A DNA stretch of 64,000 nt from an uncultured Chloroflexia bacterium (GCA_963734535.1 CAVTHS010000006.1:160001-224000); one strand, 5' to 3'; counted from the first letter of the stretch, positions 46,624 through 49,946 are shown. Notes: generated from the sequence alone by a model not told the origin. Numbers and translations are program-made.

Positions 46624-46842
46624 GCTAAGCGGTCCCTTCCTGGGTCGTCGTGATCGACACGGGTCCTGCACCCGTTGCGGAGCCTAGGGGCCCGGGGCGG
46701 TGCGGTGGAGTTGACTAGTGGTACCACCTGGCACCGGCGGTGGTACCCCCGGCGCTCCCTTCGGTGCAGGCCCGCACCGGATCGGTGCGCGGAGGCGCCA
46801 GCCGCAGCCTCGATCAGGCGGGACGGCTACGATGTCCCGGCC

Positions 46843-47892
46843 ATGAGCGACCCGACACCGGATCCGCGCCCCCGATCCGCCGAGGCGCCGCCGCGCGACC
46901 TGCTGGGCCGGCACCCGCGCGACCTCCGGATCTCGGTGACCGATCGCTGCAACTTCCGATGCGCCTATTGCATGCCCGCCGAGGTCTTCGGCCGCGACTA
47001 CGCATTCCTGCCGCGGTCGCAGATCCTGCGCTACGAGGAGATCGTCCGCCTGGCGGGGGCCTTCGTCCGGCTCGGCGCGGAGAAGCTCCGGATCACCGGC
47101 GGGGAGCCGACCGTTCGCCGCGACCTCCCGGACCTGGTGCGCCAGCTCGCGGTTCTCGACGGCGTGCGCGACCTGACGCTGACCACGAATGGGTCCGCCC
47201 TCCGGACCCTCGCCGCGCCGCTCGCCGACGCCGGGCTGCGGCGGATCACGGTGAGCCTGGACTCCCTCGACGACGCGGTCTTCCGCGCGATGAGCGGGGC
47301 CGACATGCCGGTCGCACGGGTCCTCGACGGCATCGCCGCCGCGCGCGACGCCGGCCTCGCGCCACTCAAGGTCAACATGGTGGTCAGGCGCGGCAGCAAC
47401 GAGGAGTCGATCGTCCCGATGGCGCGCTGGGCGCGCGACGGGAACGTCATCCTGCGCTACATCGAGTTCATGGACGTGGGGACCGCGAACGGCTGGCGGA
47501 TGGACGAGGTCGTGCCGCTGGCGGAGATCGTCGCCCGGGTCGACGGAGTGTTCCCGCTCGAGGCGTTGCCTCCCAACTATCCCGGCGAGGTGGCGACGCG
47601 ATTCCGCTACCGCGACGGGGCCGGCGAGGTCGGGGTGATCGCGTCGGTCACCGCGCCGTTCTGCGGCGCCTGCACCCGCGCCCGGCTGTCCGCCGAGGGT
47701 GAGCTCTTCACGTGCCTCTTCGCGGCGCGCGGGACGGACCTCCGCGGTCCGCTCCGGGACGGCGCCTCCGACGCTGATCTGGAGGCGCTGATCCGATCGG
47801 TCTGGGGCATCCGCGACGACCGCTACTCGGACCTCCGGAGCGCCGGGACCGCGAACCTGCCCCGCGTCGAGATGTTCGCGATCGGCGGCTGA
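46843..47892 (+). CDS. moaA: GTP 3',8-cyclase MoaA
   Basis: LRISVTDRCNFRCAYCMP, RITGGEP, FCGACTRARL...TCLF, C-terminal MFAIGG. Confidence 0.97.
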   Translation: MSDPTPDPRPRSAEAPPRDLLGRHPRDLRISVTDRCNFRCAYCMPAEVFGRDYAFLPRSQILRYEEIVRLAGAFVRLGAEKLRITGGEPTVRRDLPDLVRQLAVLDGVRDLTLTTNGSALRTLAAPLADAGLRRITVSLDSLDDAVFRAMSGADMPVARVLDGIAAARDAGLAPLKVNMVVRRGSNEESIVPMARWARDGNVILRYIEFMDVGTANGWRMDEVVPLAEIVARVDGVFPLEALPPNYPGEVATRFRYRDGAGEVGVIASVTAPFCGACTRARLSAEGELFTCLFAARGTDLRGPLRDGASDADLEALIRSVWGIRDDRYSDLRSAGTANLPRVEMFAIGG

Positions 47893-47902
47893 GGTTCGCT
47901 GG

Positions 47903-48472
47903 ATGGGCCTGCCCGCTGCGGCGCCGGTCGCGGCGCTCGGGCGTCGGAGCGTCGCGTACATCGTCGACTCGCTGATCATCGGCCTCGCCTACGTCGTGAT
48001 CGGCGTCGTCTTCGACTCCCTCTTCGGGCCGCTCGTCGAGGCGACACCCGACGGGCTGGCGCTCGTGGTGGTCGCGGTCAACCCGCTCCGCGTGGCCCTG
48101 GAGCTCACCGCGACGCTCGTCGTCGACGCGCTCTACTTCGCCGGGTGCTGGTGTCGCTGGGGCGCGACGCCCGCGCAGCGCGTGCTCGGGATCCGGGTCC
48201 GGCTGGCGGATGCCGAGCCTTCGACGCCGGGTGGGCCCCGTGCGCTTCCGGTCGAGGCAGCCGGGCGTCGCTGGGCGGTCCTGGCGATCCTCCCGATCGC
48301 GACGGGCTCCCTGTCGGCGAGCGGTGCCGTCGACGTCAGCGTCCTGGCCCTCGTGAACGGCGCGTGGTTCCTGGTCCTGCTCGTCTCCGCGGCCGTGGAC
48401 CCGCTCCGGCGCGGCCTCCACGACCGTGCCGGGGGCACGATCGTCGTCCCGATCGCCCGCCGTCCCACCTGA
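47903..48472 (+). CDS. RDD family membrane protein
   Basis: RRSVAYIVD...GATPAQRVLGIRV...RGLHDRAGGTIVV. Confidence 0.88.
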   Translation: MGLPAAAPVAALGRRSVAYIVDSLIIGLAYVVIGVVFDSLFGPLVEATPDGLALVVVAVNPLRVALELTATLVVDALYFAGCWCRWGATPAQRVLGIRVRLADAEPSTPGGPRALPVEAAGRRWAVLAILPIATGSLSASGAVDVSVLALVNGAWFLVLLVSAAVDPLRRGLHDRAGGTIVVPIARRPT

Positions 48473-48674
48473 TGGGTTCGGGCTGCCGGCGGCGCCGTCG
48501 GGGGCCTTCGGTGCCCGCCGCGGGAGGCGACCGATCGGCTGTCAATGGTCCGCAGGGCATTCATCCACACGGCGTCCACACCGCGGCGAAGTTGGTGGAC
48601 GGGCGGAGCGGGCGGACTCGCATCTTCGTGGATAACCGGGTTGCCGGAGGGTTGTCGGGGCGCGATGATCTCCC

Positions 48675-48822
48675 TGCCCGGAGGGGCTACGACAGCCGAC
48701 GACCCGGCGATCACATCAACGGGTCACGGCGAGGTGATCGGGAGCAATCCCGGTTGCTCTCCCTCCGAGGTCGCGCCGCGATTGCATCAAGGTTGCTTCC
48801 TCGGACGTGGTTCCTCTGGGCA
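48675..48822 (+). ncRNA. Candidate structured ncRNA (~148 nt), family not recognised
   Basis: 17-bp closing helix with 4 G-U pairs that work only on the + strand; internal hairpins including GGGA-GCAA-UCCC; TTGCCG-17-GATGAT promoter-like signal ends 6 nt upstream. Confidence 0.6.
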
Positions 48823-49281
48823 CTGCTGTGTCCCGCGCGGGGCCGCCGGTGAGCGCACCCGTGGATCGCCTGACCGCCGGGAACGCGCCGACACCATGTG
48901 GGCGAGGGTCGCCCGGGCGCCGAGCTCCACCCGACCGGAGCGCGCAACCCGGTGTCGCCCACGACGAACCGGTGGCGCCCACGACGAACAGATCGCGCGG
49001 ATCGGGCACCTCCGCCCCGCCGCAGGAAGCGGCGAGCGCCGCTTGTTCGCATTGGGCGACCGATCGGCGAGGATCGGCCCGCCACGCTGGCCCGCGACCG
49101 TGCGATTCGGGCCGTCTGTTCGCCGCAGGCGACCGGCGAGGTGGAGGCCGGCGCGCAGGCCCCGGCTGCTGGGCGATGAGCGTGGAGGCACTCGAACGGA
49201 GGCCGTCGCCGGCGCCGCCGCGCTGGCCGGTCGGCGTCCTGTCGGCGGAGATTGCCGGTCGGCGGAGATCGCCGACCGGCG

Positions 49282-49946
49282 TCAGGTCGGCGGGACCAGG
49301 TTCTCGCGATCCGTGAGCGGATCGGCGGCGGGTGTCGCGCACAGGAAGTAGCGCAGTCGCGTTCGCCCGATGTTCGCGATGGCATGCGGGAGCCCCATCT
49401 CCACGCGGACACCCTTCAGCGGCTCGAGCGTCTCCTCCAGCGACCCGACCCGGACCGAGCCGCGCCCCTCGAGGACGACGACCACGTGCTCGGAGGCCAG
49501 GTGGCGGTGCCAGCCGGTCGTGGCTCCCGGATCCAGCTCGATCTCGGACACGCTGAAGCTGAGGGTGCCGAAGTCGCCGGGCTCCACGAGCACGCGATGC
49601 CGAGGCCGGGCGTGGTGATCAGGCGGGCACCCTCGCGGCGCCGGACCGGCTCGCCGGGCCGCGCTCGCCACGACGGCTGGTCGTCGGCCGGGCGAGCGGG
49701 GTCGATGTCGATCGCGGCACGCAGCGCAAGGGCGTCGATGGCTCCGTCGTTGCGGCCGATGCCCTCGTCGGCCGGTGCCTCGTAGAGAACGTCACCGGCC
49801 CGGACGACGACGCGCCGGCTCAGCGCGATCCCGTGCTCGAAGACGATCTCGCCGGCTGCCACGTAGACCACTGCCTCCTGGCCGCGGAGGCGCGGGCTGA
49901 TCTGCCTGCCCGGCGGGATCCGGTCGAGGTGGAGCTGGATCGCCAT
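49282..49946 (-). CDS. Two-domain cupin protein (frameshift near 49630)
   Basis: EAVVYVAAGEI...VRAGDVLY and GWHRHLASEHVVVVLEGRG...PHAIANIG. Confidence 0.72.

What the first reader, a model, noticed from the sequence alone, without database searches (positions are those of the whole stretch)
48641..48845. Stand-alone structured RNA candidate between convergent genes
Seen: in an 800-bp gap, TTGCCG-17-GATGAT predicts a start near 48676, where UGCCCGGAGGGGCUACG (48675-48691) pairs fully with CGUGGUUCCUCUGGGCA (48806-48822) using four G-U pairs that would be A-C mismatches on the other strand. Enclosed are the CGAUCAC/GUGAUCG stem, a GGGA-GCAA-UCCC GNRA hairpin and the UCCGAGG/CCUCGGA stem. No downstream + strand gene exists, so it is not a riboswitch. 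I cannot match it to SRP, RNase P, tmRNA or tRNA. Inference: a novel trans-acting RNA or a very divergent 6S/Ms1-like RNA.
Basis: partly seen in the sequence, partly recalled or inferred. Interest (0 to 1): 0.75.

Follow-up and report, generated by a model that had tools for sequence, protein, structure and literature searches.

The report
Clamped small RNA with twin loops
This is a real, conserved small RNA of about 148 bases with its own promoter, one member of an undescribed family of end-clamped small RNAs found in every sampled genome of one Chloroflexota family, and its partner is still unknown.

Summary
Bases 48675-48822 (+) fold into a 17-bp closing helix with four G-U pairs. It encloses two hairpins that carry the same 13-nt loop, plus a GCAA hairpin. 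The + strand folds at z -5.5 and the - strand at z -1.6.

The RNA is single-copy and 146-148 nt long. It was found in 33 of 36 genomes of the genus, always after moaA(-RDD) and convergent with a cupin gene. Pairing is kept by double changes in 17 of 58 pairs.

A conserved promoter ends 6-7 nt before the helix: an upstream GTGGA box, then -35 and -10. Contigs of four RNA libraries cover 48662-48832.

Nothing in Rfam 15 matches. The same promoter and the same 13-bp "clamp" frame 1-5 small RNAs in 60 of 60 sampled genomes of the family. Their inner hairpins differ.

In other genera this RNA has one to three loop hairpins and lies between moaA and a purine nucleoside phosphorylase gene that has a leader of its own.

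Best reading: a stand-alone stable RNA that presents an invariant structured loop to an unknown partner, most likely a protein. It is neither 6S/Ms1-like nor shown to be a riboswitch. The family is new and its function is unproven.

The parts
48625..48636 (+). Upstream promoter box TTCGTGGATAAC; the core GTGGA lies 3-4 nt before the -35
   Evidence: A GTGGA box stands at this place in 54 of 55 aligned loci and in 72 of 73 loci of the pattern scan. GTGGATAAC occurs only twice in the 3.2-Mb genome.
48641..48646 (+). -35 hexamer TTGCCG
   Evidence: TTG is conserved at this place across the genus and other genera, 17-18 nt before the -10.
48664..48669 (+). -10 hexamer GATGAT (TAnnGT in other genera)
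   Evidence: Positions 2, 5 and 6 are invariant in 30 of 30 sequences of the genus. The hexamer ends 6-7 nt before the helix in all aligned loci. It was not called by the generic scan.
48675..48822 (+). The whole RNA, about 148 nt, a four-way junction
   Evidence: MFE -88.5 kcal/mol, z -5.54. Length is 146-148 nt in 30 of 30 genus loci. Contigs of 4 RNA libraries cover 48662-48832.
48675..48691 (+). P1 5' arm (the clamp); the first 13 nt after U48675 are almost invariant in the family
   Evidence: 17 of 17 positions pair with 48806-48822. Pair 6 reads AU 58, GC 47, GU 15, AC 1 in 121 unique RNAs.
48695..48730 (+). Hairpin 1 (P2/P2a) with the 13-nt loop GCGAUCACAUCAA at 48707-48719
   Evidence: helix 2 has 4 pairs with double changes. 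The loop motif occurs only twice in the genome, both times in this RNA.
48731..48761 (+). P3 hairpin with the GNRA tetraloop GCAA at 48744-48747
   Evidence: helix 3 has 4 pairs with double changes. GGGAGCAAUCCC is near invariant.
48764..48805 (+). Hairpin 2 (P4/P4a) with the 13-nt loop GCGAUUGCAUCAA at 48778-48790
   Evidence: helix 4 has 6 pairs with double changes.
48806..48822 (+). P1 3' arm, ending at the likely mature 3' end
   Evidence: In run X2 a contig ends at 48822 and runs into letters that I recognise, from recall, as sequencing adapter (table 7).
48823..48835 (+). Tail after the clamp (CUGCUGUGUCCC); U-richer in relatives (GCUUCGUUGCCC, GUUUCGUUGUGCC); possible terminator tail
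   Evidence: Tails were read. The terminator role is inferred. The generic terminator scan found none.

Best explanation
It is an independently transcribed, stable small RNA of about 148 nt (48675-48822, + strand).

Shown or well supported:
- An activator-type promoter (GTGGA box, -35, -10) would start transcription at the first base of a 17-bp closing helix.
- The 3' arm of that helix ends the molecule, so both ends are locked in one clamp.
- The clamp and the promoter form a cassette shared by a whole family of small RNAs in this lineage. What differs between members is the cargo inside the clamp.
- The cargo here is two hairpins that display the same 13-nt loop, G-N-GAU-YRC-AUC-AA, on either side of a GCAA hairpin.
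- The RNA is conserved in this genus without any gene behind it.

My reading of the loop: two purine mismatches, a 3-bp mini-helix and a 3-nt apex.

Inferred: the RNA acts in trans by offering these loops, one to three per molecule depending on the lineage, to one common partner. That partner is most likely a protein that it binds or titrates. The clamp gives stability and termination. Partner binding and the kind of partner are inferred.
For: Structure:
- The fold is strand-specific.
- In 30 sequences of the genus, 94.7% of cells pair and 17 of 58 pairs show double changes. 0 of 500 shuffles reach any measure, and slid controls pair at 37-48%.
- Indels between subgroups are single bases, so the region is not coding. 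The ORFs over it have no Pfam family.

Conservation:
- Single copy in the genome.
- Found in 33 of 36 genomes of the genus.
- Found in 58 of 150 genomes of the family with model R1 under strict filters.

Promoter: it is conserved in 54 of 55 loci and ends 6-7 nt before the clamp.

Expression: contigs of four RNA libraries from four studies cover 48662-48832. Single short contigs have word depths up to 982.

Independence from neighbours:
- In this genus the cupin stop lies 27-256 nt after the RNA in the 29 relatives, yet the RNA is kept at 146-148 nt. punA sits on another contig without the RNA.
- In other genera punA has its own conserved leader between the RNA and the start codon.
- The 73-nt paralogue is followed by a gene that looks leaderless, with its own -10 (my reading).
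- Clamp RNAs occur in tandem, each with its own box.

Family: the clamp pattern is in 60 of 60 sampled genomes of the family, 1-5 per genome, and the reversed control pattern is in none. There are four loci in this genome.

Loop:
- Across 181 loops, positions 2, 6, 7 and 9 vary. These are one mismatch position, two apex positions and one mini-helix position (9, which pairs with U5). The others do not vary. That pattern fits a recognised shape rather than a long seed.
- 148 distinct hairpins keep the two closing pairs in 86% and 94% of cases with changing letters.
- Copy number is 1, 2 or 3 in 73, 36 and 12 unique RNAs.
Against: - No partner is known.
- Contigs cannot show RNA ends, strand or level, and an RNA library can hold DNA.
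- The generic scan called neither promoter nor terminator.
- Most loci used for the loop and clamp statistics were found with patterns that fix many of those positions. Invariance is therefore partly by construction. Only the 25 loci found by the covariance model and the 30 genus loci are free of this.
- The alignment behind one search was fitted to the model.
- In most genera the RNA is co-directional with and close to punA. In four loci the start codon follows within about 17-50 nt. This fits a leader.
- CsrA, the best-known loop-binding protein of this kind, was not found in the 90%-complete genome.
Confidence: 0.45

Rival explanations
1. It is a cis-acting 5' leader, either a riboswitch or a protein-dependent attenuator. 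In this reading the clamp followed by a U-rich tail is a conditional terminator in front of punA and, in paralogues, other genes. This genus would then carry an orphaned copy.
For: - MoaA lies upstream and PNP downstream on the same strand in 32 of 34 single-hairpin loci and 6 of 11 multi-hairpin loci.
- At least 17 of 25 covariance-model loci have PNP downstream.
- In L042, L047, L053 and L055 the gene starts about 17-50 nt after the RNA.
- The 266-nt paralogue in this genome is followed by ABC transporter genes.
- The tails are U-rich for a genome of 72% G+C.
Against: - The RNA is kept in 33 of 36 genomes of a genus where no + strand gene follows.
- punA keeps a separate conserved element plus a helix that covers its ribosome-binding site, between the RNA and the start codon. 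The core of that element is exact in 35 of 67 loci.
- The conserved parts are the closing helix and the hairpin loops, not a junction core. A variable number of identical hairpins (1-3) is unlike known aptamers.
- Clamp RNAs occur in tandem.
Confidence: 0.2
2. It is a base-pairing sRNA. The repeated loops would be redundant seeds that kiss mRNA targets, as in sibling sRNAs of Gram-positive bacteria.
For: - There are several paralogues per genome under one promoter type.
- Identical exposed loops come in 1-3 copies.
- Other clamp RNAs carry other loop sequences, as expected for different target sets.
Against: - Variable positions interrupt the loop, so the longest invariant run is 5 nt.
- The only exact complement of the 11-nt core in the genome is the RNA's own antisense. 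Hits with up to 1 mismatch are scattered, with no pattern that I could see.
- No RNA chaperone was looked for beyond CsrA.
Confidence: 0.2
3. It is a 6S- or Ms1-like RNA that binds RNA polymerase.
For: - RNA-library contigs of high word depth cover it.
- Its ends are paired.
- No 6S RNA was found in this genome.
Against: - It is a four-way junction here and a 73-80 nt irregular hairpin in most relatives, with no central bubble.
- There are 1-5 different clamp RNAs per genome.
- The 6S model also misses 9 of 14 control genomes, so its silence says little.
Confidence: 0.03
4. It is not an RNA gene of its own. It would be the terminator or 3' UTR of the moaA-RDD operon, or a DNA-level inverted repeat such as a miniature mobile element.
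For: - It always lies after moaA or RDD in this genus.
- The arms form an imperfect terminal inverted repeat.
Against: - It has its own conserved promoter.
- The two tandem G-U pairs of the clamp are kept and would be mismatches on the other strand. The - strand fold is ordinary.
- Each type has stable synteny across genera, and this type is single-copy.
- Paralogues lie after unrelated genes.
Confidence: 0.03

Closest known systems
CsrB/RsmY/RsmZ-type protein-sequestering sRNAs (recalled knowledge)
   Same: Several sibling genes per genome. A conserved upstream activating box. A variable number of hairpins that show one identical loop motif. An abundant, stand-alone transcript.
   Different: The loop motif is a 13-nt structured loop, not GGA. 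No CsrA was found in the genome. The ends are locked in a conserved 13-17 bp clamp, which those RNAs lack. No Rfam match.
Y RNAs (Ro-associated; recalled knowledge)
   Same: A conserved helix formed by the 5' and 3' ends, with variable modules above it. Several paralogues.
   Different: No TROVE/Ro protein was found in the genome. No Rfam match. No tRNA-like module was seen.
6S RNA / Ms1
   Same: RNA-library contigs of high word depth cover it, and its termini are paired.
   Different: There is no rod with a central bubble. Sizes are 73-274 nt with changing cargo. No match to RF00013 or to any Rfam family.
Orphan riboswitch-like RNAs and riboswitch-derived sRNAs (recalled knowledge)
   Same: In most genera it sits upstream of a metabolic gene, and in one genus it survives without that gene.
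   Different: Conservation lies in the closing helix and the loops rather than in a junction core. The number of hairpins varies. The neighbouring gene has a separate leader.

Membership tests
6S RNA (RF00013) | Match to the family covariance model | tested here: not met
   0 matches in the window, in 48300-49500 at E up to 10 and in the whole genome.
6S RNA (RF00013) | A long, mostly double-stranded rod with a large central bubble | tested here: not met
   The MFE and the conserved structure form a four-way junction. Relatives are 73-80 nt hairpins.
6S RNA (RF00013) | Binds RNA polymerase holoenzyme | not testable with these tools
   Needs co-purification.
Riboswitch or cis-regulatory leader | Lies upstream of, and co-directional with, the regulated gene | tested here: not met
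   Not met in this genus: a convergent cupin gene follows after 27-460 nt. Met by position in other genera: PNP lies downstream in 32 of 34 single-hairpin loci.
Riboswitch or cis-regulatory leader | An expression platform that switches with the sensor | tested here: inconclusive
   The clamp plus a U-rich tail could terminate. No alternative anti-terminator pairing was found, and the generic scan calls no terminator.
Riboswitch or cis-regulatory leader | Binds a ligand | not testable with these tools
   Needs in-line probing or ITC.
CsrB/Rsm sponge RNAs | GGA motifs in hairpin loops and a CsrA/RsmA partner | tested here: not met
   The loops read G-N-GAU-YRC-AUC-AA. Pfam CsrA was not found in the 90%-complete genome.
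Y RNA | A Ro (TROVE) protein in the genome and a match to the Rfam Y RNA models | tested here: not met
   TROVE was not found. No Rfam match.
SRP RNA, tmRNA, RNase P RNA, tRNA | Match to the family model | tested here: not met
   No match in the window. SRP RNA is found elsewhere, at G000:C2:147046-147145. ARAGORN found no tRNA at any of the 25 relatives' RNA loci among the 30 loci scanned; its one tRNA, in L043, lies about 1 kb from the RNA.
Clamp-cassette small RNAs (family proposed here) | GTGGA box, promoter, a 13-bp clamp (GCCCGRAGGGGYC with GGUYSCUYYGGGC) that starts at the transcription start, and a U-containing tail | tested here: met
   All parts are present at 48625-48835. The same cassette stands at 3 other loci of this genome and in 60 of 60 family genomes.

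The most novel reading that the evidence does not exclude
This Chloroflexota lineage runs a regulon of clamp-cassette RNAs. One activator bound at the GTGGA box, which resembles the DnaA-box-like 9-mers next to dnaA in this genome, would drive a set of terminator-clamped scaffold RNAs. Each scaffold would display a different cargo loop as a decoy for a different cellular factor.

The cargo of this RNA begins with GAUCAC, the same letters that follow helix 45 at the 3' end of this genome's 16S rRNA. It could therefore titrate a factor that reads that tail, such as an Era-type KH protein (review PMC10582724, passages read). That would link replication or growth state to ribosome maturation.

Against the Era part: that review stresses both adenines of GAUCA, and the second one is G in 66 of 181 loops.
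Probability: 0.05. Interest if true: 0.85.

Novelty: new variant of a known kind. Interest (0 to 1): 0.64.

Why it matters
The carriers belong to a widespread, almost uncultured lineage. The named relatives are soil and freshwater MAGs labelled Candidatus Limnocylindrales/Limnocylindria or Chloroflexota, and no regulatory RNA of this lineage turned up in my searches.

The finding gives three things:
- A conserved RNA with defined ends, covered by contigs of four RNA libraries.
- A stereotyped cassette of promoter box plus end clamp that marks a whole set of small RNA genes (1-5 per genome in 60 of 60 sampled genomes), so more of them can be found by pattern alone.
- An invariant 13-nt structured loop that calls for a partner.

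If the partner is a protein, this would be a new RNA-protein regulatory pair. If the clamp proves to be a general stabilising and terminating scaffold, it is also a natural design for expressing stable RNAs.

Tried and rejected
Searches that found no known family:
- Rfam gave no hit: the window at gathering score; 48300-49500 at E up to 10, where the 4 chance hits lie outside the RNA; 20 distant loci at gathering score and at E up to 1, where only a tRNA appeared; and 6 loci of this genome, where only a cut FMN riboswitch appeared.
- The generic promoter and terminator scan found 0 and 0.

Ideas tested and dropped:
- An ORF starting at the NUG that often follows the clamp. There is no conserved frame; lengths run from 5 to 342 aa and the translations are junk-like.
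- A remnant of the punA leader in the window's 460-nt gap. The local alignment scores 23, against a shuffle mean of 21.1 and a maximum of 35.
- Pairing between the loop (GAUCRC) and GYGAYC in the punA leader. I compared them locus by locus by eye. The letters do not covary.
- Exact complements of the loop in the genome. Only the RNA's own antisense matches, and hits with up to 1 mismatch show no pattern that I could see.
- Ro/TROVE, CsrA and 6S were not found in the genome, which is 90% complete.

Alignment problems:
- RNAalifold on 64 mixed single-hairpin RNAs gave only the clamp, because two subtypes do not align inside it.
- Alignment A3 also held weak reverse-strand matches and was replaced by A4.

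Sequencing runs:
- 24 runs from 17 studies hold 4-10% of the sampled words. Only 4 were laid, and the other 20 are no evidence.
- In the 4 laid runs the flanks 48400-48647 and 48834-49300 had no cover.

- Literature searches found no paper that joins this lineage with small RNAs, riboswitches or RNA motifs, and none on a riboswitch candidate for purine nucleoside phosphorylase in Chloroflexi. I saw search listings only.

Full report
**What is there.** The finding lies in the 809-bp gap between an RDD-family gene (47903-48472, +; Pfam E 7e-16) and a convergent cupin gene (49282-49671, -; E 7e-11). moaA lies before the RDD gene (46675-47892, +).

The + strand of 48670-48830 folds at -88.5 kcal/mol. 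The shuffle mean is -64.6 (z -5.54), and 0 of 200 shuffles fold as well. The - strand gives -68.8 (z -1.57), and 12 of 200 shuffles reach it.

The fold is a four-way junction:
- P1, 48675-48691 with 48806-48822: 17 bp, four of them G-U.
- Hairpin 1, 48695-48730, with loop GCGAUCACAUCAA.
- A GCAA hairpin, 48731-48761.
- Hairpin 2, 48764-48805, with loop GCGAUUGCAUCAA.

The two loops are the only copies of this 13-nt motif in the 3.2-Mb genome. The three long ORFs that cross the region have no Pfam family.

**Conservation in the genus.** The stretch is single-copy in its genome. It was found by BLAST in 33 of 36 genomes of the same genus. In the 24 genomes of the other family sampled there was only one 19-nt match.

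In the 30 loci fetched, the RNA is 146-148 nt long. A cupin homologue is convergent in 30 of 30. An RDD homologue lies upstream in 25 of 30. MoaA lies upstream in 28 of 30, and the other two loci are cut short.

On an alignment fitted to the covariance model R1:
- 94.7% of cells pair.
- 17 of 58 pairs show changes on both sides, in 98 cells.
- 0 of 500 column shuffles reach any of the five measures.
- Sliding the partners by 1-3 columns drops pairing to 37-48%.

The two subgroups differ by single-base indels, which excludes a coding frame.

GUGAUCG is present in 12 of 30 sequences and belongs to the GCAA hairpin.

**Promoter.** In 54 of 55 aligned loci (30 of the genus, 25 of other genera; in the remaining one my anchor was misplaced) the same order appears:
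- a box with the core GTGGA (here TTCGTGGATAAC, 48625-48636);
- 3-4 nt;
- TTGNNN;
- 17-18 nt;
- TAnnGT, or GATGAT in this genus;
- 6-7 nt;
- the first base of P1.

Within the genus, positions 2, 5 and 6 of the -10 are invariant. The generic sigma-70 scan did not call this site, because it matches 8 of 12 positions. This is an inference from conservation, not a mapped start.

**Expression.** Twenty-four runs hold 4-10% of the sampled words of 48400-49300. I laid four RNA libraries from four studies: peat, freshwater, soil and ice.

Thirty-eight contig pieces at 85% identity or more were laid. All lie within 48662-48832, and single contigs reach word depths of 982.

One contig ends at 48822 and continues with letters that I take, from recall, to be sequencing adapter. 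One 428-nt contig of a relative runs on for 255 letters beyond 48832.

Contigs cannot prove strand, ends or level, and DNA can be present in RNA libraries. I count this as support for a short, well-represented RNA, not as proof.

**The wider family.** Model R1 found matches in 58 of 150 further genomes of the family under strict filters (one of them the unpublished G195). In a sample of the phylum it matched only within the same class: 1 of 3 and 6 of 10 genomes in two families, and 0 of 137 genomes of the other 43 families sampled, one of which belongs to the window's own order.

The distant matches share three things:
- the 13 clamp pairs (GCCCGRAGGGGYC with GGUYSCUYYGGGC);
- one to three hairpins with the same 13-nt loop;
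- a tail such as GCUUCGUUGCCC.

Of the 80 listed, most are MAGs titled Candidatus Limnocylindrales/Limnocylindria or Chloroflexota, and 73 have the matching 5' arm.

In 121 unique RNAs, clamp pair 6 reads A-U 58, G-C 47, G-U 15 and A-C 1, which shows long-range pairing. Two tandem G-U pairs are kept. Many positions of these loci were fixed by my patterns, so their invariance is partly built in.

In 181 loops only positions 2, 6, 7 and 9 vary. In 148 distinct hairpins the first two closing pairs hold in 86% and 94% of cases with changing letters.

**A cassette, not one RNA.** This genome has three more loci with the same box, the same promoter and the same clamp:
- a 266-nt RNA at G000:C8:135714, full of CGCAAG hairpins, behind three to four boxes and before ABC transporter genes;
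- two identical 77-nt RNAs at C11:175734 and C12:24205.

None of the three has an Rfam match.

A clamp-only pattern matched as follows:
- 60 of 60 sampled genomes of the family, 1-5 times each;
- 18 of 66 genomes of a second family (one of them the unpublished G401);
- 0 of 66, 0 of 7 and 0 of 1 in three other families of the class;
- the reversed control pattern matched nowhere.

Ten clamp RNAs fetched from four genomes show further cargo types, with CUUG, GCAA and other stable loops. By my reading of the upstream letters, nine have the box. All have U-containing tails, and two lie in tandem 325 nt apart.

**Neighbours in other genera.** The 73-80 nt single-hairpin form of this RNA has MoaA upstream in 32 of 34 loci. 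In 32 of 34 it has a purine nucleoside phosphorylase gene (PNP_UDP_1, E about 1e-50 in the three tested) downstream on the same strand. At least 17 of the 25 covariance-model loci also have it downstream.

Between the RNA and that gene lies a second conserved element. Its core GAYCGGCAUCCCGGUGUCGRUAC is exact in 35 of 67 loci. It is followed by a helix that pairs with the GGAGG before the start codon. punA therefore has a leader of its own.

A second type, about 73 nt with a CUAAC/CAC internal loop, lies after a tRNA_edit-domain gene. In 21 of 22 loci it lies before a membrane-protein gene that seems to have its own -10 and a leaderless GTG, by my reading.

In the window's genome punA sits on another contig, after a gene that reads like a cytidine deaminase (my reading of the translation), and without any clamp RNA.

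**Interpretation.** Four things are shown or well supported:
- a conserved, strand-specific structure;
- a conserved promoter that ends at the helix;
- presence in RNA libraries;
- retention without a downstream gene.

Together they make a stand-alone small RNA the best reading for this window.

The shared clamp is most simply a stabilising and terminating scaffold: the 5' arm is the first thing made, and the 3' arm plus a U-containing tail ends the transcript. The cargo would give specificity.

The pattern of invariance in the loop fits recognition of a shape. The copy number of 1-3 fits binding or titration of one partner. That is why I favour a protein, without evidence for any particular one.

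A leader role (0.2) and a base-pairing role (0.2) stay open. A 6S/Ms1-like role and a purely DNA-level or terminator origin are unlikely (0.03 each).

**Comparison with known kinds.** The nearest analogies are CsrB/Rsm-type sponges, Y RNAs and orphan riboswitch-like RNAs. Each fails at least one defining feature that I tested here.

Five literature searches gave nothing on small RNAs of this lineage. The family is therefore new to Rfam 15 and to the library searched. Its kind, a bacterial small structured RNA, is known. The end-clamp cassette shared by many cargo types is the unusual part.

The resemblance of the loop to the GAUCAC that follows helix 45 in this genome's 16S rRNA, and of the box to motifs next to dnaA, are leads only. 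The review on Era read (PMC10582724, passages) stresses both adenines of GAUCA, and the second is G in 66 of 181 loops.

Noticed in passing
Related loci, e.g. L146, L100, L072 and L148, about 60-110 nt after the RNA: A second conserved element lies between the RNA and the purine nucleoside phosphorylase gene. It is a stem GCCCGACGGGA/UCCGUCGGGC around the core GAYCGGCAUCCCGGUGUCGRUAC, which is exact in 35 of 67 loci. It is followed by a helix that covers the GGAGG before the start codon. No Rfam match. It looks like a separate riboswitch-like or operator-like punA leader.
   Followed up: partly
G000:C8:135714-135979 (L063:2215-2480): A 266-nt RNA with the same clamp and three to four GTGGA boxes upstream. 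It is filled with about eight CGCAAG hairpins and lies 110 nt before ABC transporter genes. No Rfam match.
   Followed up: partly
G000:C11:175658-175734 (-) and G000:C12:24205-24281 (+): Two identical 77-nt clamp RNAs with the box and promoter but without the 13-nt loop. They are related to the 73-nt CUAAC/CAC type of other genera. The two contigs may overlap or hold a duplication.
   Followed up: no
L196 (G096:C4:93820-94600), also G085, G102, G077, G155 and G129: Clamp RNAs of different cargo types stand in tandem a few hundred bases apart, each with its own box and promoter.
   Followed up: partly
Window 48941-48982: A direct repeat of about 21 nt (CCGGTGTCGCCCACGACGAAC, then CCGGTGGCGCCCACGACGAAC) lies in the extra 460-nt spacer that only this genome has after the RNA (read; spacer lengths).
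   Followed up: no
Window 49218-49281: A strong inverted repeat (GCCGGTCGGCGGAGATCGCCGACCGGC) lies just beyond the stop of the cupin gene. It gave chance-level Rfam hits and may be the terminator of the cupin gene.
   Followed up: no
L063:4340-4501 (G000:C8, about 137839-138000): An FMN riboswitch, cut off by the end of the fetched stretch (54.9 bits, E 4e-10), lies after the ABC transporter genes.
   Followed up: no
G000:C14:140400-140800: DnaA-box-like 9-mers (TTGTCCACA, TTTTCCACA, CTGTCCACG) lie beside dnaA. The densest cluster of such motifs in the genome is the promoter of the 266-nt clamp RNA on C8.
   Followed up: partly
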